Of a stretch of 64,000 bases of DNA, positions 1,298 through 59,031 are shown one piece after another. Source of the DNA: a candidate division WWE3 bacterium RIFCSPHIGHO2_01_FULL_40_23 (lineage in GTDB: Bacteria > Patescibacteriota > WWE3 > UBA101185 > 2-01-FULL-41-18); the NCBI GenBank assembly GCA_001772615.1, contig MEUZ01000007.1, positions 108,283 through 172,282 of the forward strand. The letters are read 5' to 3'. Made by a program: the position numbers and the translations under genes. The notes beneath the pieces were generated by a model that worked only from the letters and a program-made list of their open reading frames with translations, had not been told where the DNA came from and did no database searches. Position 1 is the first letter of the stretch, and each line of letters starts with the position of its first letter.

Positions 1298-1378
1298 GTC
1301 ATCCTGAACCTGACTGCCGGCAGGCAGGCTTGATTCAGGATCTGTATTTTAGATTCTGGATCAAGTCCAGAATGACAT
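1298..1378. repeat. Family-1 nested palindromic repeat copy (GTCATCCTGAAC...ATTCAGGATC / GATTCTGGATCAAGTCCAGAATGACAT)
   Basis: Same GTCATyC-hairpin-GrATGAC architecture as copies at 5301, 8085, 13080, 17193, 25213, 27921, 43774 and 58941. Confidence 0.7.
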
Positions 1379-5300: not shown

Positions 5301-5439
5301 GATTCCGGGATTTAGATCCCCGCTTTCGCGGGGATGACATCTGTAATACGGAATGACAACCCCCCCACTTGTCATTCCGTGCCTGACACGGAATCTCTCT
5401 AGGTTGTCGTTGAGATTCCGCATCAAGTGCGGGATGACA
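5301..5439. repeat. Family-1 nested palindromic repeat cluster (3-4 hairpin units)
   Basis: Contains AGATCCCCGCTTTCGCGGGGATGACA, GTCATTCCGTGCCTGACACGGAATC and GATTCCGCATCAAGTGCGGGATGACA. Confidence 0.7.
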
Positions 5440-8084: not shown

Positions 8085-8114
8085 GTCATTCTGGACCTGA
8101 TCCAGAATCATGTC
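8085..8114. repeat. Family-1 palindromic repeat unit (GTCATTCTGGACCTGATCCAGAATCATGTC)
   Basis: ATTCTGGA / TCCAGAAT stem between GTCAT and ATGTC flanks. Confidence 0.6.
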
Positions 8115-13079: not shown

Positions 13080-13148
13080 GTCATCCTGAACTTGATTCAG
13101 GATCTCATATTTTTACAGCAGAGATCCCGGATTTGATCCGGGATGACA
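13080..13148. repeat. Family-1 nested palindromic repeat (two hairpin units)
   Basis: GTCATCCTGAACTTGATTCAGGATC...AGATCCCGGATTTGATCCGGGATGACA. Confidence 0.7.
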
Positions 13149-16939: not shown

Positions 16940-16966
16940 GGCTTTTTAGCCTCCTTTTATTTTTTT

Positions 16967-17033
16967 GTCATCGCAAGTGAAGGGCGGTGGTCCTGACTTG
17001 ATTGCTTCGGTCGCTCTGCTTCCTCGCAATGAC
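16967..17033. repeat. Family-2 palindromic repeat (GTCATCGCAAG...GATTGCTTCGG...CTCGCAATGAC)
   Basis: Nested palindromes with outer GTCAT/ATGAC and inner GATTGCTTCG; see other copies. Confidence 0.7.
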
Positions 17034-17192
17034 GAATAATTGGTCATTCTGATGCCTGCCCGCCTCTGGTGGGAAAGCCAGAATCTAGCTGCCTTACAGG
17101 CAACAACCCGCTCCCAAGATAGCAGACTGAATTAAAATTTTTTGAATTGGACCTACCTTCCAATTCCAATCTTATTCAGCCAATCCCACTTT

Positions 17193-17249
17193 AGATCCCG
17201 CATCAAGTGCGGGATGACAGAAGAGTCATTCCCGCGAAAGCGGGAATCT
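17193..17249. repeat. Family-1 nested palindromic repeat
   Basis: AGATCCCGCATCAAGTGCGGGATGACA...GTCATTCCCGCGAAAGCGGGAATC. Confidence 0.7.
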
Positions 17250-17431
17250 AAACATAGGAATTTTCTCCTGATCTTGGAAACGGATTGCTGCCAACAAATT
17301 TTAGAAATGAGCCGACAGCAGGATTAATACCTGTTACCTGTCGGCTCATGTGATTGCTTTGGAAACCTTTCTACCCCATAACCTAGAAGGTAGTTTCCAT
17401 TGAAGGTCTTGTACACGGCAATCCCATTTCA

Positions 17432-17509
17432 GATTGCTTCGCTACGCTCGCAATGACTAAATACATTGTCATCGCGAGGAGGCAGCCTATTGGCTGACAA
17501 CGAAGCGAT
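17432..17509. repeat. Family-2 palindromic repeat
   Basis: GATTGCTTCGCTACGCTCGCAATGAC...GTCATCGCGAGGAGG...CGAAGCGATC. Confidence 0.7.
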
Positions 17510-19273
17510 CTAAAAGTGGGAGAAGATTTGCTTCTCAGCGGTTTCGGCCGTGAATTTCGAAACCAGTTCTATCCGATCCGCGAACTCTTGGACAGTCGCG
17601 ATTGAGCTGGAACCAACATCGCACAAAATTACAAAGATGTTGATTTCCAATTCTTTCTTAACTGTTTTGAGAAAGCGGATAAACTCCGAGCTGACCGCGC
17701 ATTCGCCATCAGTGATGAGACAAATGTCGGCTTTTTTAAGGCCTTCTTCTTGAATCATCTCAATGGCTTTGCGCAGGGGTCGCTCAAAGTCAGTCCCGCC
17801 CCCTGCTTGGGCTTCGGCCAGCTCAAGCATTTGCTGGCCGGTCATCTGGCCCTGCGGATACACCTTTGACAGTTTTAGAACAGAGTCAAAGAGTATCCAG
17901 CCAAACGACCGTTTCTGGAGTTTTGCATAGTGAGCAAGAGACAACGTTGCTGCCTTTGCCCACTGTTGCTTTTCTCCCTCCATGGAACCCGATCCGTCTT
18001 CACAGACGATCACGGGGCCATGGCCCATCTTTTGCCGAACTTTCTGGCCATGAAGCCTAAGCTCCCCACGCGTCCACCTTTGAAGGGCTTTCGCGCGAAG
18101 AGCCGGGTGCACCAATGCAACCAACTCGGTCCTTTGAGCGCGCTTGAGATCGCGACCGGTTTCAACCGTTGCGACCCGCACGCCCTCCCCCGCGATTCTG
18201 GACCTAGCTTTGCGGGACGCGATCTTTCGAACACGCCCAAGCAAAGAAGCAAACTTTTTAAGCGCCTCGTTGCGCTTCATCCGTTCAAGTATCCCCAAAG
18301 TTTGCGGGATTCCCTGGCGGGTGAGTTCGCTTTCTTCCAAGCCCCAGGCCTCAATGGTTTCGGAAACCTCTTCCACCTTGGTCTGGGCATTGCGGACGGC
18401 TTGAAGTCCTATACGAGTCAGCTCACGCAGTTTTTCCTGCGCTTGCTGACTGCCGGGTTCCCCAAGCAGATCCCCTGCCAGTTTTTCGGCTTTAGCTTTT
18501 GCCAAATCAGCCTTTTGCTTTGCAGAATCCGCATTTGCTTTCGCATCGGCGGCTTCTTTAGCAAGCTGATCGGCAATTGCCCGCGCTTCCTCCTGGGTCA
18601 TACCAGAAGACAGCGCGCCCTCCATAGCTTCGTCAGAAGCGACGGAGGGTTGAGCCTGTTCCGAAGTCAACTGCCCTTGGCCGCCTGAGAGTTGACCACT
18701 TGGCTGTCCGCCTTGTGGTTGACCTCCCTGTTGACCTTGGGACTGACCCGAACCTTGTTGACCGGTCGCTTCCGCTGCAGCATCCGCCAACTGCTGAAGC
18801 ATCTGCGCTTGGGTTTGCGCCTGTTGCGCCTGTTCTTCAGCCTGATTGGCTTCCCCTTGAGCGGTTGCCTGCTCCCGGAGCTTTTGCCGATCCTCTTTTG
18901 GCACCAAAGCTAGGACGGATTCGCCCATTGCGACAGTCCCAAGGACCGACTTCAGCTCCGAAAGCGCCGTATCGGCATGAAGCTCCTGGTAAGCACCCGA
19001 TTTAAGGGCTTGCCCCAAAAGCTCCCACCAATACCGCCGATCGGCAGGGACCTCATCACTCACCTGCGGTTCTGGCGACCACAGGGTGTGATAAAGATCC
19101 AACAAGCAACCCTCAACTCCCGGAAGTGCCTCGGCACCTTTTTCTTCCAGTTCCGGGATTGAGGGTACATTCTCACGGTGACGGAGGTAACGCAGTGCCG
19201 TAAAGGCATCCGCGTCGGTCACCGCAAGCGCAAGTACTTCCTGCCGGGTGACCGGCCGTGGCCTAGTGGCCAT
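17510..19273 (-). CDS. von Willebrand factor A (vWA) domain protein with MIDAS motif; long Q/G/A-rich low-complexity and coiled-coil N-terminal half
   Basis: GGAGGAAGA RBS. C-terminal VIVCEDGSGSM (DxSxS MIDAS)...GGGTDFERPL...ICLITDGEC matches the vWA fold. Pairs with the upstream AAA+ gene as in RavA-ViaA / MoxR-vWA systems. Confidence 0.75.
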   Translation of the reverse strand: MATRPRPVTRQEVLALAVTDADAFTALRYLRHRENVPSIPELEEKGAEALPGVEGCLLDLYHTLWSPEPQVSDEVPADRRYWWELLGQALKSGAYQELHADTALSELKSVLGTVAMGESVLALVPKEDRQKLREQATAQGEANQAEEQAQQAQTQAQMLQQLADAAAEATGQQGSGQSQGQQGGQPQGGQPSGQLSGGQGQLTSEQAQPSVASDEAMEGALSSGMTQEEARAIADQLAKEAADAKANADSAKQKADLAKAKAEKLAGDLLGEPGSQQAQEKLRELTRIGLQAVRNAQTKVEEVSETIEAWGLEESELTRQGIPQTLGILERMKRNEALKKFASLLGRVRKIASRKARSRIAGEGVRVATVETGRDLKRAQRTELVALVHPALRAKALQRWTRGELRLHGQKVRQKMGHGPVIVCEDGSGSMEGEKQQWAKAATLSLAHYAKLQKRSFGWILFDSVLKLSKVYPQGQMTGQQMLELAEAQAGGGTDFERPLRKAIEMIQEEGLKKADICLITDGECAVSSEFIRFLKTVKKELEINIFVILCDVGSSSIATVQEFADRIELVSKFTAETAEKQIFSHF

Positions 19274-19287
19274 ATCTTCCTCCAGTT

Positions 19288-19354
19288 GTCATCGCGAGCG
19301 AAGCGTGACGATCTCGGCTTGATTGCTTCGGCCGCTCCGCTTCCTCGCAATGAC
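19288..19354. repeat. Family-2 palindromic repeat
   Basis: GTCATCGCGAGCGAAGCG...GATTGCTTCGGCCGCTCCGCTTCCTCGCAATGAC. Confidence 0.7.
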
Positions 19355-19359
19355 ATGAA

Positions 19360-20568
19360 TCACCTATTCGGTGCGATGAAAACCGCGATCACTTTCTGCT
19401 TCACGGCCTCCACCTGCTGGTGCAAATTGGCAATTTCCTGCCGCATTGCATCACCACCTTCCACCTCACCCTCAAGGCGCATCAGCTCTTTCACAGCGCT
19501 TTCGCACTGGGTCAGAGCCGCAACGCCCTTAGTGCGGTCACCACCCAAAACGATCTGAACGGTGCCGCCGGGGGCGAGGAGGCTGTCAACGAGCTCTTGG
19601 GCCTCCGTGAGCGCTGTCTGGGTATACGGCGCGAGCTTCGCCTTGACAACGGCGATTTGCTCGGGCGTATACCAGAGCAACCACTCAAGGACGACGAGGT
19701 CCTGCTTTCCAACCACTGTCCGACCGTTGAGCAAGGCGTTAGCCTGCATCACGTCGAACAGACGGCCGAAACGCCGATCGTCGTCCCAAGCCCACTTGAA
19801 GTCCGCCGAAGTGTCATCAACCAGCTCCTGGAGGATATCCAGGGTGGTGTCGATGATCGCCTCGGGGACCTCGACGAACAGACGAGCCTTGCGCAGAACC
19901 TCAACATCCGCCAGGGTTAACTGGGCGACTGCCTGACTCCGCGAGCTTGCGCGGTCGCGGCTGAGCCGAGCCTGCACAAGCTTCTTCTTCCCACCCCGAT
20001 CCAGTGGGTTCACCACAACACGGATGGTCATACGAGACCACACCGCACTAAGGTTTCCTTCCTGATCGGGCAGCTCGTTGCTAGCAGCGAGGAAAGCCAA
20101 TAATGGCGTTCTCACCATCTGGCCTTCATGCCTCACCCCATCGCCTTTAGAGAGATCGAGGAGAGTCTGAAGCACGCTGGCTTCCGACTTCCAGATCTCG
20201 TCGGCGAAGACGATGTGCGCGAGGGCCGCGCGCCCGAGCTGATCACGCGTTCGGATCTGCTTCCCACCATCCGCGGTCGGAACTTCTTCGATCGAGGTTG
20301 ACTCGACCAAAAGCTGTTCCACCGAGACGATGGTCGGCATGAGCGCGTCGTAAAAGACCGCGCCCGAAATCCGACGCACCAACGCCTGGATCGTTCCCGT
20401 CTTGTCAATCCCGGGCGATCCGAGGAAGAAAGCCGGACGACCAGACACGAGGGCAAGCCATGTTGCCCAAACGATATCGCTGCGCTGGATGTGGCTTGCT
20501 TCCACATCAGCGCTGATGTCCCTCACCTTGGGGGCAAGGGCTAAAGCCTCTTTTAGCAAGGCTTCCAT
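19360..20568 (-). CDS. MoxR/RavA-like AAA+ ATPase
   Basis: GAGGAGGTGGGG RBS. Walker A GSPGIDKT (GxPGxxK[ST] as in RavA), Walker B IVFADEI, sensor-1-like ASNELP. 402 aa. Confidence 0.7.
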   Translation of the reverse strand: MEALLKEALALAPKVRDISADVEASHIQRSDIVWATWLALVSGRPAFFLGSPGIDKTGTIQALVRRISGAVFYDALMPTIVSVEQLLVESTSIEEVPTADGGKQIRTRDQLGRAALAHIVFADEIWKSEASVLQTLLDLSKGDGVRHEGQMVRTPLLAFLAASNELPDQEGNLSAVWSRMTIRVVVNPLDRGGKKKLVQARLSRDRASSRSQAVAQLTLADVEVLRKARLFVEVPEAIIDTTLDILQELVDDTSADFKWAWDDDRRFGRLFDVMQANALLNGRTVVGKQDLVVLEWLLWYTPEQIAVVKAKLAPYTQTALTEAQELVDSLLAPGGTVQIVLGGDRTKGVAALTQCESAVKELMRLEGEVEGGDAMRQEIANLHQQVEAVKQKVIAVFIAPNR

Positions 20569-20753
20569 TTTTCCCCACCTCCTCGGGGGGGTATTCTAAT
20601 AATTGGGATTTGAAAGGTTTCCGGATTTACCGGAAAGAGGGTTTCTCCTCTCTAAAACTAAAACAACTGCGTTGAGTATAAATATTGTTTTAATCTTAGA
20701 GAGAAGGGCCAGCAGAAAGTATCTTTTGAATACATTGCTGACCCAGGCAATCC

Positions 20754-21096
20754 TTATATCTCCTCGAATTCAAAATGAAGCGCTTTAATCCGGCGGAACT
20801 CAACAAACTTGTACCACCGCCCTTTAACGCTCACTTCCCCTTCAGCCGGTGGAACCTGTTGCATTTGGGCCCACAAAGGCTTGACGCCAAGTTCCACGAG
20901 CTTTGCGATCACGGAGAGGGGAGCCCACGACAACGATGTCATCGTAACCACCACTACGAAACCGCACGACGATATCCTCAGCCGATGAAAACGGCTTCGG
21001 ATCCTTCACCACCTCAACCTCACCAAAAATCCGCTTGAGAGCAGAAATCTGAGAGGGGAGGGGCTCATGCTGGGACATCCACAAGATCTTCTTCAT
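20754..21096 (-). pseudogene. small hypothetical gene apparently split by a frameshift (or assembly indel) near 20950
   Basis: GGGAGG RBS before MKKILWMSQHEP... (ORF 20842-21144). The protein-like sequence continues in another frame (ORF 20754-20954). The in-frame continuation of the first piece is R/G-rich junk. Confidence 0.35.
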
Positions 21097-21277
21097 TTTT
21101 TGGGCCTCCCGTTTCCGATCAGTATAGTTGCTATTTTCCAGCACCAGCTATACCAATCGGTTTTGGCACTTTGGGTTTCGATCCAAGCTCGCCATCTATC
21201 ATGCGAGTCGGTTCTTCGCATCAATCTCCCAGCGAGAATCTTAAACCAAAGTTTTAAGAACTCCCAGAGGACCTCAA

Positions 21278-21553
21278 TCATTTCTCACCTCCGCGGAGTT
21301 CTTCCACCGCTTTTTTGAAAGCTTCTTCTCCTTCATCGCGACGGATAACTGCCAACCAGCGCGTACCCTTGGCAAAAGTCAGATTCGTCATCTGATCTTT
21401 TCCCATCAAACGCGTATACAAGCCAGCCGCATCAAACGAAGCCGATGGGGATTTGGATCCTGCAATTTCAATCGCCTTCTCAATATCTTTCCCATCGACC
21501 CTTCCCTCCTTATACAGAAGGGTCAAAAACTGGACACCGGTACGAGCATCCAT
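21278..21553 (-). CDS. small hypothetical protein
   Basis: AAAGGAG RBS; 91 aa. Confidence 0.55.
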   Translation of the reverse strand: MDARTGVQFLTLLYKEGRVDGKDIEKAIEIAGSKSPSASFDAAGLYTRLMGKDQMTNLTFAKGTRWLAVIRRDEGEEAFKKAVEELRGGEK

Positions 21554-21710
21554 CTTAAATCTCCTTTTTTTAATGGGCCAATATCAATATTAAGAAAAAG
21601 GTTATTCACCTCACAGAATTTTCTATTAACTAAATTGAAATAAAAAACTCTGAGAAAGGCTTAAGAGACTGGATTTACCAAAATCTTAAGCCTATGTGTG
21701 GGTCAGGATC

Positions 21711-22175
21711 TCAAACGGCGTACCGCCCGTCAGAAAGCGTGTACACCAAATCCCTCCTTTCACCAGCTAAACACTTGGCCCCCGCACTCTCCATAATTTC
21801 CGGAGTGAGCTGGACCCAGCCTTCCCCTGGTGAAGAAAGACCGAGGGTTGCCACCTTAAACATCTGGCTGTTCCAGTCTTGCGAAAGCCAGAACGTCCAG
21901 GAAGCGGCCTGATCTTCCGAAACCCACTCGGGAAGATCGAGCCGAAAGCCAGCAATCGCGGTTACGGCGATCATTGGCTCTATTCTCCCCTCCTCCCCAA
22001 ACCGGAAACCATGTGTTTCCTGGTAAGGTGGGGAAGGGTTTACCTCCCAACTCCCGTCGATGAAAGCGACAACGTCGCCCACGACGAGAGCTCCTTCTCT
22101 GCCTTCGACAGACAGAGCACGGACCGATGATCCGAGCTGCTGCCACTCAACGGCAGACGGGTATCTGATCTTCAT
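21711..22175 (-). CDS. hypothetical protein
   Basis: AAAGGAG RBS 8 nt upstream; 154 aa. Confidence 0.55.
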   Translation of the reverse strand: MKIRYPSAVEWQQLGSSVRALSVEGREGALVVGDVVAFIDGSWEVNPSPPYQETHGFRFGEEGRIEPMIAVTAIAGFRLDLPEWVSEDQAASWTFWLSQDWNSQMFKVATLGLSSPGEGWVQLTPEIMESAGAKCLAGERRDLVYTLSDGRYAV

Positions 22176-22271
22176 CTCAACACTCCTTTGTTTCCCGTCG
22201 GGCTCAAGGCCTTAATGGGATGTTGTTGAATGATTTCTTCTTTGAGCTTTCGCTCTCAAAATCTTCCATTA

Positions 22272-22361
22272 GATTGCTTCGCTACGCCTGCCTGCCGGCA
22301 GGCAGGCTCGCAATGACTTTAAACCAGGTCATTGCGAGGCTACAAAGTAGCCGAAGCAATC
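22272..22361. repeat. Family-2 palindromic repeat (extended, with CTGCCTGCCGGCAGGCAGG core)
   Basis: GATTGCTTCGCTACGCCTGCCTGCCGGCAGGCAGGCTCGCAATGAC...GTCATTGCGAGGCTACAAAGTAGCCGAAGCAATC. Confidence 0.75.
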
Positions 22362-22585
22362 TTGAGTAAATGGAAAACTTTAAGAGCGAGCCGACAGAAG
22401 AAGTACAAAGTACATTCCAAATTCTGTCGGCTCTAAGAGATAAATTGCTTTGTTGGTTTGATTTCTAATCGACGTTAGCGCGTCGTCAGGCTCAAACCTT
22501 CCTAAAAGCCTTTGGTTTCGGGTTCGGGTTAGAAGATCCAGGAATTAAGTCTCTCCCTTTTCTTCACCCCCGATTCCATTTTACT

Positions 22586-23851
22586 TTAAAGCGGAAACGG
22601 AATCACACTCCCAACAGGAACCTGGCTATCGTTTGAAAAAACAACGACAGCAGGCCCATGGCTGGGGTGAAGTTCGCTCCACTTTTTCCCGCTGACGGTG
22701 CGGGAAGACTCCCCAGGTTCAAATACAGCAACCCAGGAAGTTCCAGATTTGGTGTAGGACCTGGCGATAGCGCCGGTTAGCCACCGTGGCGCCTTGCCCG
22801 AAATCACTATACCCTTCTCCGTTTTCACGGAGGGCGGGATCACCAAGGGCAAATTCTTTACATCAAAAATCTGCCCGGGGATGCCAAACTCGACAAGAGT
22901 ATGATCATCCCTCTCCTCAACCCGCCAGTTGAGAAGTTGGCTGCCCTCACCCTGCGGTTCAACCTCCGGTATTCCTACATAACCCCAAGCTACCTTGGGA
23001 TCATAATAGAATACCTTCGTTGACTTTAGCCCGCAGGCGAGGGCATGGTATGGGGCTCCAAGCGGCGTGTTTCCCCAGAGGCACACCTTGCTTTGGCCGG
23101 CAACCTTTGCCGATACCATTGCAAGTAGCCCGGGGAGAACCGCCGGGAGCCAATCCCGATCCGATCCGCCATTTCGGACAGGGAGATTCAGACCCTCAGC
23201 CAGTCGCGGAAAGTTCACATCCGCAAGCTCGGACCCATCGGTCCAAGGCTCTGGCTGACCCGCAAGCTTTATTAAAAGCTCGGCCACCGCGCGGGCAGTC
23301 GGTGACCCAATCGGTGGCGTTTCCCGCTCAAGCCTCGTAATTCTGGCTTTGAGTGGAGCCCCCGTCTCAAACACCTCGTCCTCGGCCCCGACCAGAACCG
23401 ACTCCAGAATCGCCAAGGGTTTTACCCCAAGGCGCCCCGCTTCGGAAATCCAAGTCGGAACCACCTCGTCATATTTCGGCGACGCAATCACCAGAAGGTA
23501 ATCGCACCCCGAAAGAATGCGCTCGTTTTGGGAAGTCAGTTTAACCCCTGTCGGGGAAAACCTCCCTTCCACATCGAGCAACATCCCGCCAAGGTCGACG
23601 AGAGTCACGGGCATTCGGGAGTTGCGAACCGAGTCAACGACCCAGTCCACAAACCCATCAAGAAACTTGCCCTTGCGGCGAACCGCCTTGACAAGTTCCG
23701 GGTCCGCTTCAAAGCTCCAGCCGGTGATGCCCTCACCGTCAGGAGCCGCCTCAACGACGACAAAACTATCGCGAGGCAGAAGGGTCCGAAGCAGACCCAT
23801 GAGAACAGTCTTCCCCGAGTGGGGAGGACCGCCGATGGCCACTTTGACCAT
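22586..23851 (-). CDS. P-loop NTPase domain fused to an uncharacterised C-terminal domain
   Basis: AAGGAGGAGG RBS before MVKVAIGGPPHSGKTVLMGLL (Walker A GxxxxGKT); Walker-B-like LVDLGG. The C-terminal ~220 aa has no motif I recognise. Confidence 0.6.
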   Translation of the reverse strand: MVKVAIGGPPHSGKTVLMGLLRTLLPRDSFVVVEAAPDGEGITGWSFEADPELVKAVRRKGKFLDGFVDWVVDSVRNSRMPVTLVDLGGMLLDVEGRFSPTGVKLTSQNERILSGCDYLLVIASPKYDEVVPTWISEAGRLGVKPLAILESVLVGAEDEVFETGAPLKARITRLERETPPIGSPTARAVAELLIKLAGQPEPWTDGSELADVNFPRLAEGLNLPVRNGGSDRDWLPAVLPGLLAMVSAKVAGQSKVCLWGNTPLGAPYHALACGLKSTKVFYYDPKVAWGYVGIPEVEPQGEGSQLLNWRVEERDDHTLVEFGIPGQIFDVKNLPLVIPPSVKTEKGIVISGKAPRWLTGAIARSYTKSGTSWVAVFEPGESSRTVSGKKWSELHPSHGPAVVVFSNDSQVPVGSVIPFPL

Positions 23852-24124
23852 TTCCTCCTCCTTTTGGGGAGATAATCGAAGGGCGAATTCCCTTCTTAAC
23901 ATTTTGTTTAGTAAGTTTGATCAGCGTTAACTTACATCCGGTTAGTCTTCCGGAGAGCGCGGCAGTTGCGGAAAGAAAACCTGCTCAAGGTTAACTTTCC
24001 GTCCCTAATTCAAGTATGGCTGGGCTGACCCTTCCATTGTTTCATGAAGATTAAACTGCATCTCCACTACTCCATTCGATATTGCTATCGAAACTTAATT
24101 TGACAATCAGGGATTTGTAAAAAA

Positions 24125-25009
24125 CTAGGCCTTGGTCTCGCAGGTGGCCGAGGTGATGGCCAGGCGGAAAACCTGCCCACCTGGGAAGGCCACCGAGATG
24201 GTGCCCTCGCCGGCCTCGACCGAAACGCCATACGTACCGAGCTCGCTCGCCAATTGGCGAAGAGTCCCGGCGGTGGCGTCCGACTGCCACTTGGCAGTCA
24301 TGTTCGTGCCCCACAGGCGCATGTCCTGGGGGTCCACGATCTCACCAACGTGGAACGCCTTGTCGGCGCCACTGGCGAGGCGGATGGTCCGCGGCCAGCT
24401 CTCCGAAAGGCCGTGAATCGTCGCGGCTTGGAGAGCCGCGGCAAGACCGGCGCCCGCGGGGAGGTATAAAACCCGCCGCGAGGCCCAGTCGGCCTTGGTC
24501 AAACCGGTTGCGATCAGCCGGTCGACCATACCCTTGGTCGGGTCGGCCCAGTCGATTTGGCCGACGTTCGCGTCAATGGCGCGAATTTCCTCGACCGCCA
24601 CGTCGAGGATTTGGGCAAGCTCCCCAAGCTGCCCAGCGCTCATCCCCCGCCCGGACCCGTCCAAGACGGTGTAGCCGAGAAACGCTTCCCCTTGGGGGAC
24701 ATCACCGCGGCGACTGCGGACCGCCTGATGGCGGTAGCCACCGAGGTCCAAAACCCCCACCCGCTCGGCCTTTTGGCCGATCGAGTACAACGTCAGCGTC
24801 GGCAGTCCGCTGACCATTTCCAACCCCGCCGTGGCCAAAATGGCCGCCACGGCCTGCCCGGGAAGCGCGACCTCGCCCGCGGTCCGAAGACCGGGGCCGG
24901 CGGACTCCAAAATCTTTTGGACCTGGGCCAAAAAGTTCTGGCCAAAGTCCAGGGTTGCCGGCACGACCACGTCGGCCGGCAGGGCCAGATGAAACGAAAA
25001 TTTGGTCAT
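24125..25009 (-). CDS. hypothetical protein, possible ASKHA (actin/sugar-kinase-like) ATPase fold
   Basis: AAGGAGAAATCTC RBS. Gly-rich phosphate-loop-like segments VGVLDLGGYRH and YTVLDGSGRGMSAG. The fold call is weak. Confidence 0.45.
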   Translation of the reverse strand: MTKFSFHLALPADVVVPATLDFGQNFLAQVQKILESAGPGLRTAGEVALPGQAVAAILATAGLEMVSGLPTLTLYSIGQKAERVGVLDLGGYRHQAVRSRRGDVPQGEAFLGYTVLDGSGRGMSAGQLGELAQILDVAVEEIRAIDANVGQIDWADPTKGMVDRLIATGLTKADWASRRVLYLPAGAGLAAALQAATIHGLSESWPRTIRLASGADKAFHVGEIVDPQDMRLWGTNMTAKWQSDATAGTLRQLASELGTYGVSVEAGEGTISVAFPGGQVFRLAITSATCETKA

Positions 25010-25212
25010 GAGATTTCTCCTTTCTTCCTAGCCAACACTAATCCTTCCTGTTTTGTTTAAATCCCTCGGACGAAGCTATCCTTGGAAACAGAAAGGTTGA
25101 TAAATCCTGAATCTGCTCCAACTAAATTTTTGCCGTCACAAAAATCCGGTTGGAGAAAATCCAACGAATATACCCAATCCTTTAGTTTTTATTTCTAATC
25201 TGAACTTATGAA

Positions 25213-25264
25213 CGTCATCCTGAACTCGATTCAGGATCTAGATCCTGACTTGCGTCAGGATGAC
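25213..25264. repeat. Family-1 nested palindromic repeat
   Basis: GTCATCCTGAACTCGATTCAGGATCTAGATCCTGACTTGCGTCAGGATGACA. Confidence 0.7.
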
Positions 25265-25544
25265 AATTAGTAAGGACTTTTCAGAATGGGAACTTAAAAT
25301 GAAATTTCCAATCCGCAGAGCTCTTGCCAGCCATGCGACTTTAACTCAAAGTTAGAAGCCCACGCACCTTTAGTTGCGAGATACGGATTGGAATAAGAAA
25401 TGATTGCTGCCGTCTTCTCCGGAGTTAATTATTTTGATTACTCCAAAGAAAACCGGTCATAGGCAAATATTTTCCAAAGGGTATCTTTGGCCTTTTGTAA
25501 TTCCCGCCGCGAATACCACTGGAGGTTTCGCCTTTGCCATTTGT

Positions 25545-26012
25545 AGTGGCGGGAAGCTCAAGGATTTTATTAGTCTCGTCCGGGTTTCTCTATCCTCTTT
25601 GAGGTTCCACCGGGCGCCTTCGGCATTTCACAACAGCTTTTTTCAACTTATGAAGAGATACTTCACAAGTACTGTTGGATATTTGGGGCCGATTAGGTTG
25701 CATGCTTTTATGCATGGGGTATCCCAAACCCCGGGTGACTTGTTTTTAACCTTACCTGGGTCGATTCACCATTTCCCAGTACCAATACTTATCGCTTTTT
25801 AGGCGCCTTGGCAGGGCTATGCAATTTTAACGAAGGCATATCCTTCGGATAATCTATTTCGTGATTATCAATGTACGGGATTTACCCATCCTTGCGGATT
25901 GGGTTTCCTCTAATCGCCGGATCCTTCGGACCTGCCCACTGAAAAGTGGACTTGTCCTCCGTAGCCTTGGCGAAGGAGGATGAGTGACAAAGCCTAAATC
26001 CCTTCAGGCTTC
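25545..26012 (-). ncRNA. rnpB: Structured RNA with RNase P RNA hallmark motifs (candidate rnpB)
   Basis: Minus strand, 5'->3' in canonical order: GGAGGACAAGUCC (P4 5' strand-like), GGGCAGG, GAGGAAACCCA, CAGGUAAGG, UUCAUAAG, AGAGAAACCCGGAC (P4 3' strand-like). No protein-like ORF spans it; ORF 25404-25802 lies over it and is probably spurious. The P4 pairing is imperfect in my hand alignment. Confidence 0.45.
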
Positions 26013-26018
26013 GGGGGG

Positions 26019-26258
26019 CTAGTCGGCATGCATGACCTCTTCATGCACCCGGATCGCTTCCGCGATCAGGGCGTTGAAGTCGGTCGCCGGGTCCACGTGA
26101 AAAACCTGCACATAGACCGTAGGGCGGCCCTCTTTGACTGGATAAACCAGTCGGAAGGCCCCAACCTCGGCTACCCGATTCCCCCCATCAAATACCACCA
26201 CATTGTGGAGGTACTCCCCAGTCCGGTAGTTCCGGACGGGGACAAAGCTAAGACTCAT
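26019..26258 (-). CDS. small hypothetical protein
   Basis: AAGGAGGG RBS before MSLSFVPVRNY; 79 aa. Confidence 0.5.
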   Translation of the reverse strand: MSLSFVPVRNYRTGEYLHNVVVFDGGNRVAEVGAFRLVYPVKEGRPTVYVQVFHVDPATDFNALIAEAIRVHEEVMHAD

Positions 26259-26439
26259 CTTCAACCCTCCTTTCCTGCTCAAGGCTCATCCGCCTATGGC
26301 GGACGGTTGCGATTACTTAAATCGCAAGGAGCATGCCCACCCAGTGGACGAAGGAAGAAAATGAGTAATTGCCCACCCGATTTTGATAAGCAAATACTCA
26401 TCTTCTTTACTAAACTCTTGCTTTCAAAATTTTCTATAA

Positions 26440-26505
26440 GATTGCTTCGCTCCGCTCGCAATGACGTTAAACTAGGTCATAGCGAGGCTACAAAGTAGCT
26501 GAAGC
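26440..26505. repeat. Family-2 palindromic repeat
   Basis: GATTGCTTCGCTCCGCTCGCAATGAC...GTCATAGCGAGGCTACAAAGTAGCTGAAGC. Confidence 0.7.
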
Positions 26506-26969
26506 TTGAATAAATAAAAAACTTTGAAAGTGAGCCGACGGCAGGAATAGTACCTGTAGTTTACATCGGCTCAGAGATTTATTGCTTGCCATTTTCCCTT
26601 CAACCGTTACCGGATGTCGGGCACAACCCAATAGATTAACTTAAGTTTTGATCTCGCCTAAGATCTCACTTAAGAGCCGTTTCCTTTTTCATCACTCCGC
26701 GCGGTCCCCAGGGTAAGGTCTTAACCCGTAACCGCTTTGCGCTCATGCTTATCCCTCCGTCTCTATCAGGCGTTCAGGAGGTGCTCATCAGCCGCATGAG
26801 ATCGGTCCGTTCCGTTTGCTCTTCAAGGCTCTCCCTAAAGGAAAGCTCAAACGGAACTTTCCTCAGGGAGCCTCTTCACAAGAAACGAAGAGACCGTTCG
26901 CCTTAACCGGTTTTTCGCACATGGTGCCATGTTTCCGGAAAGGCAGGGTTTGCTGATAACCCTTTCACA

Positions 26970-27401
26970 CTAGGCGCGGGCGTGAAGGGCCTTGTGGACC
27001 TTCTGCCGCGCCTTCCGGCTTCCCCCTCCGCCGTACAACGCCCCCTTCTGCCCGGGAGCGCCCTGGGCTTTCCGGGAGTCCTGGGCCCGGGCGGCCTGCC
27101 GAGCCGCGCGAGCGCTCTCGCGGGCCGCGTTGAGGGCCCTCGCCTCGGGACTCCCAGGGGCTGGGCGGCGGGCTACCGCGGCGGACGCTTGTCGGCGCCC
27201 GAGTTCCCCTGCCGCTTTGCGAGCGGCCTCCTCCCCCCTGAACTTCTCCCAGGCCTCATCGGCCTGGACCTTCACCGTGCGGAAAGCACGGCACGCACGG
27301 TCGCAAAAGCTCTGCGACCTTGAGCTCCCCCACGTCGGGGGGAAAACGACCGTGGCGGTCGCGAGGGCTTTCGCCCCGCAACCGCAGTTAATAATATTCA
27401 T
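26970..27401 (-). CDS. hypothetical protein with N-terminal Cys cluster and Arg/Ala-rich tail
   Basis: AAAAGGAGAAG RBS; MNIINCGCGAK...CDRACRAF followed by low complexity. Last gene of the GC-rich island. Confidence 0.45.
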   Translation of the reverse strand: MNIINCGCGAKALATATVVFPPTWGSSRSQSFCDRACRAFRTVKVQADEAWEKFRGEEAARKAAGELGRRQASAAVARRPAPGSPEARALNAARESARAARQAARAQDSRKAQGAPGQKGALYGGGGSRKARQKVHKALHARA

Positions 27402-27494
27402 TTTTTACTTCTCCTTTTTGATTTATTTTTCCGTTCAAAGATTCCTTCCTTAAAAGAAATCCTCCAAAGGCAAAACAACTCTTTGGAGAAATAT

Positions 27495-27574
27495 GTCATC
27501 GCGAACGAAGTGAAGCGATCTCTTCAGATTGCTTCTCCGCTTCTGACAGTTGGCGGATAGTGGATCGCAATGAC
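27495..27574. repeat. Family-2 palindromic repeat
   Basis: GTCATCGCGAACGAAGTGAAGCGATC...GATTGCTTCTCCGC...GATCGCAATGAC. Confidence 0.7.
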
Positions 27575-27920
27575 TCAAGGAGGATAGGTTTTGGGGAGAA
27601 GGCAGGCTTACGAAAAACCTCACCCTCTCCCCTAACCTCAAAATACAAATTTCAAGTAATAGTTTATTCAATTGTCAAAGTGCTTTTGGGCCGTTATGAA
27701 AGTGTTAAAATACTAAATGAGTCAATAACGCAATCAAAAAACCCAAAAACGTACACAAAGCATTAATAAATGGATCAATACTTTGTCCAGTTTGGAGGCC
27801 CTACCACCTCCATCCTGGATAAAAGTCAACTACTTTTCATTTGGTAGGTTTAGTAATTGACCCTTCTTGATTGACAAGTCTCTTGTCAATCAAGAAGTTG
27901 ATTCATCGTTTACGGGTTCT

Positions 27921-28031
27921 GTCATTCCGGCGAAAGCCTGTCATCCTGACGTAAGTCAGGATCTAGATCCCGGGTCAAGCCCGGGATGACAAGGATCCAG
28001 TCCTGTACGACATAAAGTCAGCTCAGGATGA
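27921..28031. repeat. Family-1 nested palindromic repeat cluster (four hairpin units)
   Basis: GTCATTCCGGCGAAAGCC, GTCATCCTGACGTAAGTCAGGATC, AGATCCCGGGTCAAGCCCGGGATGACA and AGTCAGCTCAGGATGAC. Confidence 0.75.
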
Positions 28032-28326
28032 CTTAAAAAATTTAAATTTGGCTTAGGAAAATGAAGGTAGGGTTAAGTCTCTCCCCTAACTTCAATCCTA
28101 TTCATCCTAATCTGAACCTCCTTTTAAGAGGTTCAGTTAAGATCCAAACTGTGAGGAGTAATCCTCACGCTTGGGTTCTCTCCCCTCGTACCAAACATGA
28201 ATTTATTGGCAGGTTACGAAGGTAGGTTTCAGGCTTTAGCCTGATTCGTAAACAAATTAATGTTTACTACTTGTTTATAGTCCGCGCGGATTACTCCGGG
28301 CTAAGACTCCTTCAGTTTCAGCTTGA

Positions 28327-28383
28327 GATTGCTTCTCCCTCAACATCCACCTGCCTCAGGCAGGAGCTCGGGATCGCAATGAC
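28327..28383. repeat. Family-2 palindromic repeat
   Basis: GATTGCTTCTCCC...CTGCCTCAGGCAGG...GATCGCAATGAC. Confidence 0.65.
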
Positions 28384-38078: not shown

Positions 38079-38666
38079 ATGGATGACGCGCTATTAAAAC
38101 AGGATGAAAAAGGAATAATTAATATATCCGATACGGTTAATCCGAACGCGATTTGGTATGCCGTCCACACATACTCCGGCCATGAAAATAAGGTCGCAAT
38201 TACGCTTAAACAGCGGGCTGAATCTTCAGGCTATCAGGATAGAATTTGTCAGATTCTTGTCCCCACACAGGAAAAAATTGTAATCAGCGAAGGGAAGAAA
38301 AGGAAAGTTGACGAGCATCTTTTACCCGGATACATCCTTGTCAATATGGTAATGAGCGATGATGCCTGGCACCTTGTAAGGTCAACCACCGGCGTTACGG
38401 GATTCGTCGGAACGGGCACCACGCCGACACCGCTTCCCGAAGCCGAGGTTAAGTCCATCCTTAAGTTTATGAAAATGGAGGCCCCCAAGTTTGAGGCTAA
38501 GTTTAAGGTCGGAGACAGCGTAAAGATAATTGACGGACCATTTACTGACTTTCTTGGAAAAGTTGACGAAGTTAACGACAGCGCCGGAAAAGTGAAGATT
38601 TTGGTTTCGGTTTTTGGGCGAGAGACTCCCATGGAGCTTGATTTTTTGCAGGTAGCTCCTTTGTAA
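38079..38666 (+). CDS. nusG: Transcription termination/antitermination factor NusG
   Basis: NGN domain (WYAVHTYSGHENKV) and C-terminal KOW (FKVGDSVKIIDGPFTDFLGKV); conserved secE-nusG-rplK synteny. Confidence 0.9.
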   Translation: MDDALLKQDEKGIINISDTVNPNAIWYAVHTYSGHENKVAITLKQRAESSGYQDRICQILVPTQEKIVISEGKKRKVDEHLLPGYILVNMVMSDDAWHLVRSTTGVTGFVGTGTTPTPLPEAEVKSILKFMKMEAPKFEAKFKVGDSVKIIDGPFTDFLGKVDEVNDSAGKVKILVSVFGRETPMELDFLQVAPL

Positions 38667-38687
38667 AAGTAGTTTCTAGACCAACAC

Positions 38688-43773: not shown

Positions 43774-43855
43774 GTCATTCTCGTGAGAGCGGAGATCAAC
43801 ATTGTCATTCCCGCGAAAGCGGGAATCTAGATCCTGGATCAAGTCCAGGATGACA
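43774..43855. repeat. Family-1 nested palindromic repeat
   Basis: GTCATTCTCGTGAGAGCGGAGATC, GTCATTCCCGCGAAAGCGGGAATC, AGATCCTGGATCAAGTCCAGGATGACA. Confidence 0.7.
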
Positions 43856-56813: not shown

Positions 56814-56904
56814 GTAACAGATTATATACCACGGAAAGAGCCCCTGATGCTATAAAGACTTGCTTTTACCGCCATCTGCCAACTGGCGGGAGCGGACAGG
56901 TTCA

Positions 56905-56961
56905 GGATGACAAAACATTGCGCTCCGAGTGCCCCTTAAGAGGCATATACTGTTGTCTTTC
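56905..56961. repeat. Repeat element B, second copy
   Basis: GATGACAAAACATTGCGCTCCGAGTGCCCCTTAAGAGGCATATACTGTTGTCTTTC. Preceded by a partial family-1 unit CAGGTTCAGGATGACA. Confidence 0.65.
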
Positions 56962-58940: not shown

Positions 58941-59031
58941 GTCATTCCAGCGAAAGCTGGAATCTAAGATTAAAGATGCCGGATCATCTGCCGGCTGGCG
59001 GACGGCATGACATAAAAGTCAGTCCAGGATG
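58941..59031. repeat. Family-1 nested palindromic repeat
   Basis: GTCATTCCAGCGAAAGCTGGAATC (compensatory C->A / G->T relative to the CCCGCGAAAGCGGG copies) followed by GATGCCGGATCATCTGCCGGC...CATGAC. Confidence 0.7.

What the first reader, a model, noticed from the sequence alone, without database searches (positions are those of the whole stretch)
27921..28031. Family-1 repeats: modular GTCATyC-[hairpin]n-GrATGAC elements with compensatory stem changes
At least 11 copies occur: 1298, 5301, 8085, 13080, 17043, 17193, 25213, 27921, 43774, 56890 (partial) and 58941. Each is built from 1-4 hairpin units of the form ATyC-NNNN-loop(GAAA/TCAAG/TTTGA/CTTGA)-NNNN-GrAT, bracketed by GTCAT and ATGAC. 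The 4-nt stem cores differ between copies (CCGC/GCGG, CAGC/GCTG, CGGA/TCCG, TGGA/TCCA, TGAC/GTCA) but always stay complementary. That pattern is selection for structure, not primary sequence. All copies are intergenic, often directly abutting stop codons. They resemble REP/BIME-type elements and are the likely source of the VIPAKAGIQ / SFPRKRES-type pseudo-ORFs, such as ORF 17142-17327.
Basis: seen in the sequence. Interest (0 to 1): 0.6.

Follow-up and report, generated by a model that had tools for sequence, protein, structure and literature searches.

The report
Ssn-associated hairpin repeats (NTS/SRM family)
The repeats are real copies of a small DNA hairpin motif known from Neisseria (dRS3/NTS), shown in 2025 to be the single-stranded-DNA target of a small GIY-YIG nuclease (Ssn), and here they are scattered through the intergenic DNA of an uncultured candidate-division WWE3 bacterium, so this is a new host for a known element, not a new kind of element.

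Summary
The window has 11 intergenic clusters with about 19 full and 6 partial copies of one unit, (T)GTCATYC-core4-loop-core4'-GRATC(TAG). There are 16 perfect hairpins against 0.58 expected by chance. The stem cores vary but stay complementary, in the window and in 82 distinct units from many genomes (97.6% paired against 83.7% in shuffles).

The interpretation needs correcting. These are not RAYT-type REP/BIME elements. They belong to the NTS/SRM family (Neisseria dRS3/NTS; Chenal et al. 2025), the ssDNA hairpin targets of the ~94-aa GIY-YIG nuclease Ssn. Unit 43803-43830 matches the 28-nt Neisseria NTS consensus at 27 of 28 positions. The two experimentally critical features, GTC 5' of the palindrome and C 3' of it, are present in 16 of 16 units.

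In 80 metagenomic loci chosen only by Ssn protein similarity, this frame flanks the gene upstream in 31 of 71 and on both sides in 22 of 64, as U(+)-ssn-U(-). The canonical doublet here (U + TA + inverted U) therefore looks like an ssn-less miniature of that cassette.

No ssn or RAYT gene lies in the window or the ~12 kb of flanking DNA I could reach. Independent assemblies reproduce the copies covered by retrieved contigs. None abuts a stop codon.

The parts
1298..1376 (.). Cluster 1. U(+) 1298-1342 has a ~20-nt GC palindrome (CCTGACTGCCGGCAGGCAGG) inserted in its loop. A 9-nt spacer follows, then U(-) 1352-1376 (core TGGA, loop CTTGA). It lies 82 nt after the stop of ORF 788-1216 and 76 nt before tRNA-Thr (1452).
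5315..5438 (.). Cluster 2. U(-) 5315-5338 (CCGC/GAAA), solitary head GGAATGAC ending at 5357, U(+) 5371-5395 (CGTG/CCTGA), an 18-nt spacer, and U(-) 5414-5438 (CGCA/CTTGA, with a C.A mismatch at the Y/R pair). It sits just upstream of the M24 peptidase gene. The called 80-aa ORF 5181-5423(-) runs through the repeats and has no Pfam hit on record, so it is probably spurious.
8085..8109 (+). Cluster 3. Solo U(+) GTCATTCTGGACCTGATCCAGAATC, 91 nt after the stop at 7994 and 63 nt before tRNA-Trp (8172).
13080..13147 (.). Cluster 4. U(+) 13080-13104 (TGAA/CTTGA), an 18-nt spacer, and U(-) 13123-13147 (CGGAT, 9-bp stem). It lies at the low-GC side of the high-GC island. Several short-read contigs end here.
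17043..17248 (.). Clusters 5 and 6. U(+) 17043-17085 has an enlarged loop. A 108-nt non-coding 'cargo' follows, then U(-) 17194-17218 (CGCA/CTTGA), 6 nt, and U(+) 17225-17248. The stretch 17224-17251 equals the NTS consensus with 2 mismatches and contains an exact dRS3. This is the source of pseudo-ORF 17142-17327.
25214..25264 (.). Cluster 7. Canonical doublet: U(+) 25214-25238 (TGAA/CTCGA) + TA + U(-) 25241-25264 (TGAC/GCAA). It lies between the divergent gene starts at 25009 and 25404.
27921..28032 (.). Cluster 8 (the reported coordinates). Truncated U(+) 27921-27938 (GTCATTCCGGCGAAAGCC) is followed directly by T + canonical doublet 27940-27990 (TGAC/GTAA + TA + CGGG/CTTGA) + A, then AGGATCCAG, a possible 3' remainder of the truncated unit. 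That arrangement would be a nested insertion. A partial inverted unit ends at GGATGAC 28026-28032.
43774..43854 (.). Cluster 9. Degenerate U(+) 43774-43797 and canonical doublet 43804-43854. The stretch 43803-43830, TGTCATTCCCGCGAAAGCGGGAATCTAG, equals the Neisseria NTS consensus with 1 mismatch. It lies 110 nt after the stop at 43664 and is identical in four independent assemblies.
56890..56911 (-). Cluster 10. Partial inverted unit (...CAGGTTCAGGATGAC) fused to a 53-nt sequence (56909-56961) that also follows cluster 9 (43852-43904).
58941..59030 (.). Cluster 11. U(+) 58941-58964 (CAGC/GAAA), then a GC-rich hairpin ending in CATGAC, and a partial inverted unit (...CAGGATGGC). The head GTCAT supplies, on the other strand, the annotated ATG of the sortase gene 58121-58945(-).
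17023..28383 (.). Related sub-family B, GTCATTGCGAG-[hairpin]-CGAAGCAATC. There are 11 heads at 17023, 17447/17468, 19288/19344, 22307/22328, 26455/26476, 27564 and 28373, all in the spacers of or next to the high-GC island. It has the same GTCAT head and ATC tail but a different stem base.

Best explanation
These are members of the NTS/SRM family of hairpin repeats (the Neisseria dRS3/NTS and the 'Ssn-related motifs' of other bacteria), present in a candidate-division WWE3 (CPR/Patescibacteria) genome.

The basic unit U is (T)GTCATYC-core-loop-core'-GRATC(TAG). When the DNA is single-stranded (incoming transforming DNA, replication or repair intermediates), U folds into an 8-9-bp hairpin capped by a G-N-A-N tetraloop or a YTTGW-type pentaloop. 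Several match the GCGAAAGC type, which I recall from the literature as unusually stable in DNA.

In characterised members, an Ssn-family nuclease (~94 aa, single GIY-YIG domain) binds this hairpin on one strand only and cuts the ssDNA a few nucleotides 5' of it. Binding depends on the stem and on the C after the palindrome. Cutting depends on the three nucleotides (GTC) before it. The interior of the stem need only pair, which explains the free but compensated variation of the 4-nt cores.

The ssn gene is typically carried between two inverted units, U(+)-ssn-U(-). The doublets here (U + TA + inverted U, or with 9-18-nt spacers or a 108-nt cargo) are best read as ssn-less miniatures of that cassette. 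They accumulate in intergenic DNA and next to each other, giving the 1-4-unit mosaics.

What is shown here: the anatomy, the excess over chance, the covariation, the identity of the frame with NTS, and the association of this frame with Ssn-type genes in other genomes.

What is inferred: that a cognate Ssn exists elsewhere in this genome (or once did), that it cuts these units, and that the consequence, as in N. meningitidis, is modulation of recombination with incoming ssDNA and/or spread of the element.
For: - Literature: the NTS is CGTCATTCCCGCGMAVGCGGGAATCYRG and contains dRS3 (ATTCCC-N8-GGGAAT). SsnA binds and cuts it only as ssDNA, on one strand, and not as RNA or dsDNA. The critical bases are the C after the palindrome and the 3 nt before it. 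ssnA is flanked by the motif in many phyla (PMC11893778).
- Window match to NTS: 43803-43830 matches with 1 mismatch and 17224-17251 with 2 (0 expected). There are two exact dRS3 sites.
- 16 of 16 perfect hairpins carry GTC 5' and C 3' although the scan did not ask for them.
- Covariation: in 194 distinct units from loci found with a pattern that left the 11-14 central bases free, the Y/R pair is T-A 112, C-G 77, other 5. Core positions 1 and 4 are 89% and 87% Watson-Crick. Positions 2-3 are either Watson-Crick or a tandem G.A/A.G.
- Formal test on 82 distinct 24-mers: 97.6% of cells paired against 83.7 +/- 0.8 in shuffles (0/500); 110 double-change cells against 30.6; covariation score 0.462 against 0.188 (0/500) and at most 0.148 in slid controls. 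Loop positions 1 (G) and 3 (A) are at least 90% conserved.
- Association with Ssn, tested independently of the paper: 4 of 118 motif-selected loci carry a ~95-aa GIY-YIG ORF (Pfam PF01541, E 1e-14 to 1e-16) directly between inverted units. In 80 loci selected by protein only, the unit lies within 200 nt upstream in 31/71 (28 of 35 units in + orientation), downstream in 27/73 (27 of 32 in - orientation), and on both sides in 22/64. About 0.003 per locus is expected by chance.
- In the 92-aa L086 protein, Y6, Y17 and E64 fall at the residue numbers mutated in Nm SsnA.
- Ssn homologues occur in CPR genomes (Patescibacteria, Roizmanbacteria, Levybacteria).
- The frame is cross-phylum. More than 118 doublet hits fall in Rickettsiales, CPR, Chloroflexia, Ignavibacteriales, Pedobacter, Deltaproteobacteria, Planctomycetes, Peptococcaceae and others. 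The exact 24-mer GTCATTCCCGCGAAAGCGGGAATC occurs in eight motif-selected loci from seven genomes of other phyla.
Against: - No Ssn/GIY-YIG ORF or remnant was found in the window, in 9.2 kb upstream or in 3.8 kb downstream (hmmsearch --max and precomputed Pfam tables). The rest of the ~250-kb scaffold and of the genome could not be read, so the units may be orphans here.
- Only 3 of ~19 units fit the published SRM search expression (0.28 expected). Most cores (TGAA, TGGA, TGAC, CGCA, CAGC) and the pentaloops fall outside it, so membership rests on the shared frame rather than on the published regex.
- 41 of the 71 ssn-selected loci with room upstream have no unit of this exact frame near the gene, so Ssn proteins of this clade also pair with other motifs.
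- Cleavage, strand specificity and any effect on recombination are untested for these sequences.
Confidence: 0.8

Rival explanations
1. REP/BIME or REPIN elements, mobilised or maintained by a REP-associated tyrosine transposase (RAYT, IS200/IS605-like Y1 HUH enzyme).
For: Short intergenic palindromes occur in inverted pairs and mosaics with a conserved 5' head. They are formally like REP doublets (REPINs) and BIMEs. The Ssn paper itself draws this analogy.
Against: No Y1_Tnp/RAYT domain appears in any gene of the window or its flanks. The head is GTCAT, not the GTAG-type REP head (recalled from the literature, not tested). The frame equals NTS. The only recurrent gene found between inverted units is a GIY-YIG nuclease. 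Units within one genome are far more diverse in their cores than I recall REP families being.
Confidence: 0.04
2. Classical MITEs, that is, deletion derivatives of a DDE-transposase insertion sequence, with GTCATYC... as terminal inverted repeats.
For: Doublets have inverted ends (TGTCATYC...GRATGACA) and a small size (50-53 bp). They occur in many phyla.
Against: There is no target-site duplication. In 127 distinct doublets, direct repeats of 3-6 nt at the flanks are at or below chance; only T at -1 (89%) and A at +1 (87%) are conserved. Each 'TIR' is itself a complete hairpin that also occurs alone. The two arms usually differ (4 of 101 doublets have identical arms). No DDE transposase was found between inverted units.
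Confidence: 0.04
3. RNA-level elements: transcription terminators, mRNA 3'-end stabilisers or small structured RNAs.
For: The hairpins are stable. GAAA/GTAA/GCAA loops look like GNRA tetraloops. All copies are intergenic.
Against: There is no T-run after the stems. Only one unit (13083-13103) passes a lenient terminator scan, and terminator-like sites are not enriched (22 against 24.5 in shuffles). Units occur in both orientations (10 +, 8 -) and as inverted pairs, so only half would present the same loop in a transcript. Several lie between divergent gene starts. There is no Rfam family at gathering threshold. In the Ssn study, Nm SsnA did not act on RNA. A secondary effect on transcripts is not excluded.
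Confidence: 0.07
4. Orphan relics or recombination joints. The units arrived with horizontally acquired DNA, or from an ssn element since lost. They now persist without a cognate nuclease, at most as hotspots for recombination that stitch island modules together (as proposed for Neisseria NIME arrays).
For: No ssn was found in the window plus the ~12 kb of flanking DNA that could be read. Clusters sit at every junction of the high-GC island (13080, 17043-17248, 25214, 27921). In Neisseria, dRS3 arrays flank variable genes and mark recombination end points (PMC1797815). 19% of genomes with more than 200 SRMs lack ssn.
Against: 16 perfect hairpins with an intact GTC/C frame, including many outside the island, argue for ongoing constraint rather than decay. 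Most of the genome is unexamined.
Confidence: 0.15

Closest known systems
NTS / Ssn-related motifs (SRM) with the Ssn GIY-YIG ssDNA nuclease (Chenal et al., Nat Commun 2025, PMC11893778)
   Same: Same head (GTCAT), same stem base (TYC/GRA), same C after the palindrome and TAG tail, and the same loop pattern G-M-A-V in the tetraloop class. There is 27/28 identity to the NTS consensus at 43803-43830. The copies are intergenic, multicopy and clustered. The same frame flanks Ssn-type genes as U(+)-ssn-U(-) in other genomes.
   Different: The host is a CPR (WWE3) bacterium. The published census searched NCBI reference/representative genomes and described Ssn as mainly in Pseudomonadati. Most units here have other cores and 5-nt loops and escape the published SRM expression (3 of ~19 fit). 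The tight doublet U-TA-inverted U is the commonest arrangement here; word searches of the paper for 'inverted' and 'MITE' found no description of it. No ssn gene lies in the DNA that could be examined.
dRS3 repeats and neisserial intergenic mosaic elements (NIMEs) (Parkhill 2000; Bentley et al. 2007, PMC1797815)
   Same: A 20-bp palindrome with conserved ends and a free centre (ATTCCC-N8-GGGAAT). Two exact instances occur here. Units flank short non-coding 'RS-like' cargo (17043-17218) and form arrays. Arrays lie next to variable or acquired genes.
   Different: Only 2 of ~19 units meet the strict dRS3 definition, because the stem base here is ATYC rather than ATTCCC. Arrays are much shorter (1-4 units). 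NIMEs were thought to be specific to Neisseria.
REP / BIME / REPIN elements with RAYT (Y1 HUH) transposases
   Same: Works alike in outline. An ssDNA hairpin with a conserved 5' head is recognised by a small nuclease whose gene sits between inverted copies. Inverted doublets and mosaics form in intergenic DNA.
   Different: The enzyme fold and chemistry differ (GIY-YIG hydrolytic nuclease against HUH tyrosine transesterase). The head sequence differs. Transposition has not been demonstrated for Ssn. No RAYT is present here.
IS200/IS605 and their palindrome-associated miniatures (PATEs)
   Same: There are subterminal hairpins and no target duplication. Insertion appears to occur next to a fixed short sequence (here T|A flanks). 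Gene-less miniatures exist.
   Different: In IS200/IS605 the left and right ends differ and the element is asymmetric. Here both ends are the same kind of unit in inverted orientation, and the encoded protein is not TnpA/TnpB.
Bacterial MITEs such as Correia elements (Neisseria) and Rickettsia palindromic elements
   Same: Small, abundant and intergenic, with terminal inverted repeats. They co-occur with these units in Rickettsiales loci (a ~110-nt TIR element is the L100/L098 indel).
   Different: Those elements are 100-160 bp with long TIRs and (for Correia) TA duplication. The present units are 24-25-nt autonomous hairpins without duplication.

Membership tests
NTS/SRM (Ssn-related motif) | Conserved 5' flank GTC immediately before the palindrome (determinant of cleavage in Nm SsnA) | tested here: met
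   16/16 perfect hairpins found without constraining the flanks have GTC 5' in unit orientation. T precedes it in 85-89% of units in other genomes, where Neisseria has C.
NTS/SRM (Ssn-related motif) | Cytosine immediately after the palindrome (most critical base for SsnA binding), followed by YRG | tested here: met
   16/16 have C 3'. The tail is TAG, TAA, TCT/TCA or ATG in the window and TAG in 73% of 398 units elsewhere.
NTS/SRM (Ssn-related motif) | 20-50-nt inverted repeat able to form a hairpin in ssDNA | tested here: met
   8-9-bp stems; DNA folds with z-scores of -4 to -6.5 for clusters; covariation.
NTS/SRM (Ssn-related motif) | Match to the published sequences (NTS 28-mer; SRM expression HGTCWYN(0-2)YYVSBRHN(0-5)WNVSBRGN(0-2)RNCYNB) | tested here: inconclusive
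   NTS: 1 mismatch at 43803-43830 and 2 at 17224-17251. SRM expression: only 3 units fit (0.28 expected). The others share the frame but have cores or loops outside the expression.
NTS/SRM (Ssn-related motif) | Many dispersed copies, intergenic and clustered | tested here: met
   About 19 full and 6 partial units in 11 clusters in 64 kb, all intergenic (gene calls in 27, 28, 45, 51).
NTS/SRM (Ssn-related motif) | Genome encodes a cd10448-type single-domain GIY-YIG protein (Ssn), usually flanked by the motif | tested here: inconclusive
In other genomes the same frame flanks Ssn-type genes (31/71 upstream, 27/73 downstream, 22/64 both). Ssn homologues exist in CPR.
NTS/SRM (Ssn-related motif) | Bound and cut by Ssn as ssDNA, one strand only | not testable with these tools
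   Needs biochemistry.
dRS3 (Neisseria) | ATTCCC-N8-GGGAAT | tested here: not met
   Only 2 units fit (17228-17247, 43807-43826). The family here is broader (ATYC-N12/13-GRAT).
REP/BIME with RAYT | RAYT (Y1_Tnp) gene in the genome, flanked by the repeats | tested here: not met
   No PF01797-type hit for any window or flank gene. The gene found between inverted units elsewhere is GIY-YIG. The whole genome was not examined.
REP/BIME with RAYT | Near-identical REP sequence within a genome, with a conserved GTAG-like head | tested here: not met
   The head is GTCAT. There are 9 different cores among ~19 units. The family definition is recalled from the literature, not tested.
MITE (DDE-type) | Terminal inverted repeats plus target-site duplication | tested here: not met
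   No flanking direct repeats above chance in 127 doublets.
Intrinsic terminator | GC-rich stem followed by a T-run, oriented with the upstream gene | tested here: not met
   1 unit passes a lenient scan; there is no enrichment; units occur in both orientations.

The most novel reading that the evidence does not exclude
The doublets (U-TA-inverted U), the U-cargo-U unit at 17043-17218 and the U(+)-ssn-U(-) cassettes seen in other genomes may together be the non-autonomous and autonomous forms of a mobile element. Its 'transposase' would be a ~95-aa GIY-YIG ssDNA nuclease. That would be a transposition chemistry not yet demonstrated: insertion without target duplication, between T and A, spreading across phyla including CPR. 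Its units would end up marking, and perhaps mediating, the junctions of horizontally acquired island modules such as the high-GC MoxR/VWA/Csx3-like island here.

Points consistent with this:
- a possible nested insertion at 27921-27999;
- accretion of different extra units at an orthologous spacer in Tisiphia and Rickettsia;
- near-equal similarity of a Patescibacteria Ssn to homologues from Kapabacteria, Thermodesulfovibrionales and Deltaproteobacteria;
- the same 24-mer in several phyla.

No empty site or excision product has been seen.
Probability: 0.25. Interest if true: 0.7.

Novelty: new member of a known kind. Interest (0 to 1): 0.33.

Why it matters
The element class is already known, so the finding is confirmatory rather than a discovery. 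It still adds four points.

1. It places NTS/SRM-type hairpins at a density of about one unit per 3.4 kb in a CPR (WWE3) genome. This group was outside the reference genomes used for the published census, and its members are thought to depend on DNA uptake. An ssDNA-specific nuclease/target system could affect that process.

2. The published search expression misses most units of this genome, so the family is probably more widespread and more variable than reported.

3. The tight inverted doublet, together with U-ssn-U cassettes, gives a concrete and testable miniature/autonomous relationship for the 'IS-like' idea raised in the Ssn paper.

4. For annotation, these units explain a class of spurious ORFs (VIPAKAGIQ, SFPRKRES) and contig breaks in metagenome assemblies.

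Tried and rejected
- Rfam at gathering thresholds found only tRNAs.
- A literature search for the pseudo-peptides found nothing. Searching the DNA strings gave the key paper.
- The Ssn gene is not in the window. A regex, phmmer with a GIY-YIG sequence recalled from memory, and then an HMM of three real homologues with filters off gave no hit. The best hit (9828-9926, 8.4 bits) aligns only 24 residues of the model and lies in the spacer before the PIN toxin cassette.
- Attempts to reach the rest of the genome failed. Exact-protein look-ups gave 9.2 kb upstream and showed the 250-kb scaffold ends 3.8 kb downstream. Walking further is blocked because only window-encoded proteins may be looked up.
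- One abundant Ssn cluster (P0073) was checked as a candidate WWE3 gene. It belongs to a genome encoding flagellar genes. The top 120 of at least 8000 Ssn homologues include none named WWE3.
- RAYT or other transposases were sought by Pfam on about 50 ORFs plus precomputed tables. None was found.
- No target-site duplication was found.
- Y/Z-like alternation of tetraloop and pentaloop units within doublets is not enriched (22 observed against 34.5 expected).
- The terminator hypothesis is not supported.
- Phage carriage is rare. The doublet occurs in 1 of 2.9 million viral contigs, and no full-length Ssn homologue is found there.
- No presence/absence polymorphism of the window's copies was seen among assemblies. 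All are clonal, at 99.9-100% identity.
Full report
**1. What is in the sequence**

Reading the eleven listed positions shows one recurring unit, which I call U: (T)GTCATYC - 4-nt core - 4/5-nt loop - complementary core - GRATC, usually followed by TAG.

- GTCATYC occurs 35 times against 11.15 +/- 3.07 in shuffles.
- A scan for ATYC-core-loop-core'-GRAT with perfect core complementarity finds 16 units against 0.58 +/- 0.81.
- All 16, read in U orientation, have GTC 5' and C 3', although the scan did not demand either.
- A looser scan adds units with enlarged loops (1298-1342, 17043-17085) and one with a mismatch (5414-5438). It finds no genuine unit outside the eleven clusters.
- In total there are about 19 full units (10 on +, 8 on -, plus 1298) and about 6 truncated or degenerate ones.

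The arrangements are as follows.
- Three canonical doublets U + TA + inverted U (25214-25264, 27940-27990, 43804-43854).
- Three convergent pairs with 9- or 18-nt spacers (1298-1376, 5371-5438, 13080-13147).
- One convergent pair enclosing 108 nt of non-coding DNA (17043-17218).
- One divergent pair (17194-17248).
- Three solo units (5315, 8085, 58941).

As single-stranded DNA the clusters fold as predicted (z-scores of -4 to -6.5).

**2. Context**

The window is 100% identical to contigs from several independent groundwater assemblies (ENA, JGI, Logan). Its proteins are annotated as candidate division WWE3 bacterium RIFCSPHIGHO2_01_FULL_40_23 / RIFCSPLOWO2_01_FULL_41_18, a CPR lineage. The repeat clusters covered by those contigs are reproduced base for base. 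Short-read contigs tend to end at them (L130, L132), as expected of genuine repeats.

Using the gene calls attached to those contigs, all clusters are intergenic. None abuts a stop codon; the nearest are 82-110 nt away. Several lie between divergent gene starts. Unit 58941 supplies the annotated ATG of a sortase gene. ORF 17142-17327 (...EESFPRKRES...) and the called 80-aa ORF 5181-5423 are probably artefacts of the repeats.

**3. Identification**

A full-text search for the unit sequence led to Chenal et al. 2025 (PMC11893778). That paper reports the following.
- In Neisseria, the 20-bp dRS3 repeat (ATTCCC-N8-GGGAAT) is part of a 28-nt oriented motif, the NTS: CGTCATTCCCGCGMAVGCGGGAATCYRG.
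- The NTS forms a hairpin in ssDNA. It is bound and cut, only as ssDNA and only on one strand, by SsnA, a 94-aa single-domain GIY-YIG protein (cd10448).
- The base most critical for binding is the C after the palindrome. Cleavage depends on the three bases before it.
- ssnA genes in many phyla are flanked by related motifs (SRM).
- In N. meningitidis the system lowers integration of NTS-containing transforming DNA.

Window 43803-43830 equals the NTS consensus except for its first base. Window 17224-17251 differs at two positions, and both contain exact dRS3. The two experimentally critical features are exactly the parts that are invariant in the window's units, while the interior of the stem varies. 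Only three units satisfy the published degenerate SRM expression (0.28 expected). The rest share the frame but have other cores or 5-nt loops.

**4. Independent tests with other genomes**

These fell in Rickettsiales (Tisiphia, Rickettsia), many CPR lineages, Chloroflexia, Ignavibacteriales, Pedobacter, Deltaproteobacteria, Planctomycetes, Peptococcaceae, Omnitrophota and others; about 0.07 hits are expected by chance (my estimate).

In the 398 units (194 distinct) of those loci:
- the Y/R pair is T-A 112, C-G 77, other 5;
- core positions 1 and 4 are 89% and 87% Watson-Crick with several pair types;
- positions 2-3 are either Watson-Crick or a tandem G.A/A.G.

On 82 distinct 24-mers, 97.6% of cells pair (shuffles 83.7 +/- 0.8, 0/500). 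There are 110 cells with changes on both sides against 30.6. The covariation score is 0.462 against 0.188, and at most 0.148 for slid partners. All five variable pairs show double changes. Loop positions 1 (G) and 3 (A) are at least 90% conserved, as in the NTS. The compensatory-change claim is therefore solid.

An orthologous spacer in Tisiphia and a Rickettsia MAG even shows a compensated change (GATCCC..GGGATGAC to GATACC..GGTATGAC), with different extra units added beside the shared doublet.

*Ssn association.* Four of the 118 loci contain a ~95-aa ORF with a GIY-YIG domain (PF01541), lying directly between inverted units as U(+)-ssn-U(-). No other gene recurs between inverted units.

In 80 metagenomic loci selected purely by similarity to these proteins, a unit of this exact frame lies within 200 nt:
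- upstream in 31/71 (28 of 35 units in + orientation);
- downstream in 27/73 (27 of 32 in - orientation);
- on both sides in 22/64.

This agrees with the 42% reported in the paper. The protein family is very large (at least 8000 hits, saturated) and includes CPR members.

*Other properties.* Doublets carry no target-site duplication; only T at -1 and A at +1 are conserved. Their two arms are usually different units. Viruses almost never carry them.

**5. Explanation**

The units are NTS/SRM-type ssDNA hairpin targets of an Ssn-family nuclease. The core may vary because only pairing is read, whereas GTC, the stem base, the loop G/A and the 3' C are read as sequence. The doublets have the same geometry as the ends of the U-ssn-U cassette with the gene removed, so they are most simply its miniatures.

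Still inferred, not shown:
- whether Ssn also catalyses their spread;
- whether a cognate Ssn is present in this WWE3 genome at all. None is in the window or the ~12 kb of flanks I could reach, and the remainder was inaccessible;
- what the system does in a CPR cell.

By analogy with Neisseria, I expect it to act on incoming or transiently single-stranded DNA and so influence recombination. It is suggestive that clusters sit at each junction of a high-GC, probably acquired, island.

**6. Rivals**

RAYT-type REP/BIME, DDE-type MITEs, terminators or RNA elements, and artefact each fail at least one direct test (see the rival and membership tables). The 'orphan relic' reading remains open until the whole genome is searched.

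**7. Verdict**

- It is a new host and a more variable variant set of a family described in 2025 (and, as dRS3, in 2000), so it is a new member of a known kind.
- Interest is moderate to low.
- The open and more interesting question is whether GIY-YIG Ssn cassettes and their doublets are a genuine mobile element.

Noticed in passing
window 14252-27453 (boundaries near 13.1 kb and 28.0 kb): High-GC island (coding GC 52-66% against about 41% elsewhere). It holds a bpMoxR AAA+ / VWA pair (19360-20568, 17510-19273), a protein with a Csx3-like domain (22586-23902) and an 895-aa protein without a Pfam match (14252-16939). Family-1 clusters sit at every junction between its modules.
   Followed up: partly
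window 17023, 17447/17468, 19288/19344, 22307/22328, 26455/26476, 27564, 28373: A second repeat sub-family, GTCATTGCGAG-[variable hairpin]-CGAAGCAATC. It has 11 heads against 0.63 expected and is confined to the spacers of or next to the high-GC island. It is also abundant in the doublet-selected (209 heads in 862 kb) and ssn-selected (119 in 335 kb) loci, so it is probably another Ssn-type motif.
   Followed up: partly
window 43852-43904 and 56909-56961: A 53-nt sequence (GACAAAACATTGCGCTCCGAGT.CCCCTTAAGAGGCATAT.CTGTTGTCTTTC) occurs twice. Each copy directly continues from the GGATGAC end of a unit. It may be a longer composite repeat.
   Followed up: no
window 1309-1328 and 22287-22306: The GC palindrome CCTG(A/C)CTGCCGGCAGGCAGG sits inside the loop of a family-1 unit (1298) and of a sub-family B unit (22307), as if inserted into or templated within hairpin loops.
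   Followed up: no
window 27863-27897: A perfect 16+16-nt palindrome, CTTCTTGATTGACAAG / CTTGTCAATCAAGAAG, lies 24 nt upstream of cluster 8. It is unrelated in sequence to the units.
   Followed up: no
window 58941-58945: The annotated ATG of the sortase gene (58121-58945, minus strand) is the reverse complement of the unit head GTCAT. The repeat may have created or displaced the start codon, or the true start may be further in.
   Followed up: no
L134 (JGI 3300025015 contig, 2737 bp) against window 9788-11782: 1995 bp including the PIN-toxin cassette are 100% identical to the window. In this contig they are joined to AT-rich DNA encoding a ribosomal protein L35Ae, a family I know only from archaea and eukaryotes. 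This is either a chimeric assembly or a shared mobile toxin-antitoxin cassette.
   Followed up: no
window 38079-45729: The secE-nusG-rplK-rplA-rplJ-rplL cluster is followed not by rpoB but by two large secreted-type proteins with Big_7 Ig-like domains (41277-43664, 44008-45729). Cluster 9 lies between them.
   Followed up: no
L028 6900-7250 against L056 (Tisiphia against Rickettsia sp. nzgw532): An orthologous spacer keeps the same doublet but with a compensatory C:G to A:T change at the stem base. Different additional units lie beside it, which is direct evidence that clusters grow and turn over.
   Followed up: partly
L100 1479-1587 against L098 2823-2825: A ~110-nt insertion with long terminal inverted repeats (CAAATGATCTGAAGAATTGG...CCAATTCTTCAGATCATTTG) is present in one Rickettsiales genome and absent in the other. 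It is a different MITE-like element (resembling a Rickettsia palindromic element) sharing genomes with the Ssn-type units.
   Followed up: no
L218/L219 (IMGVR_UViG_3300025309_000053): This is the only viral-collection contig with the doublet. It has 57-58% GC and carries nine units of the CTGAGCG..CGAAG type. It is possibly a prophage or a misclassified chromosomal fragment.
   Followed up: partly
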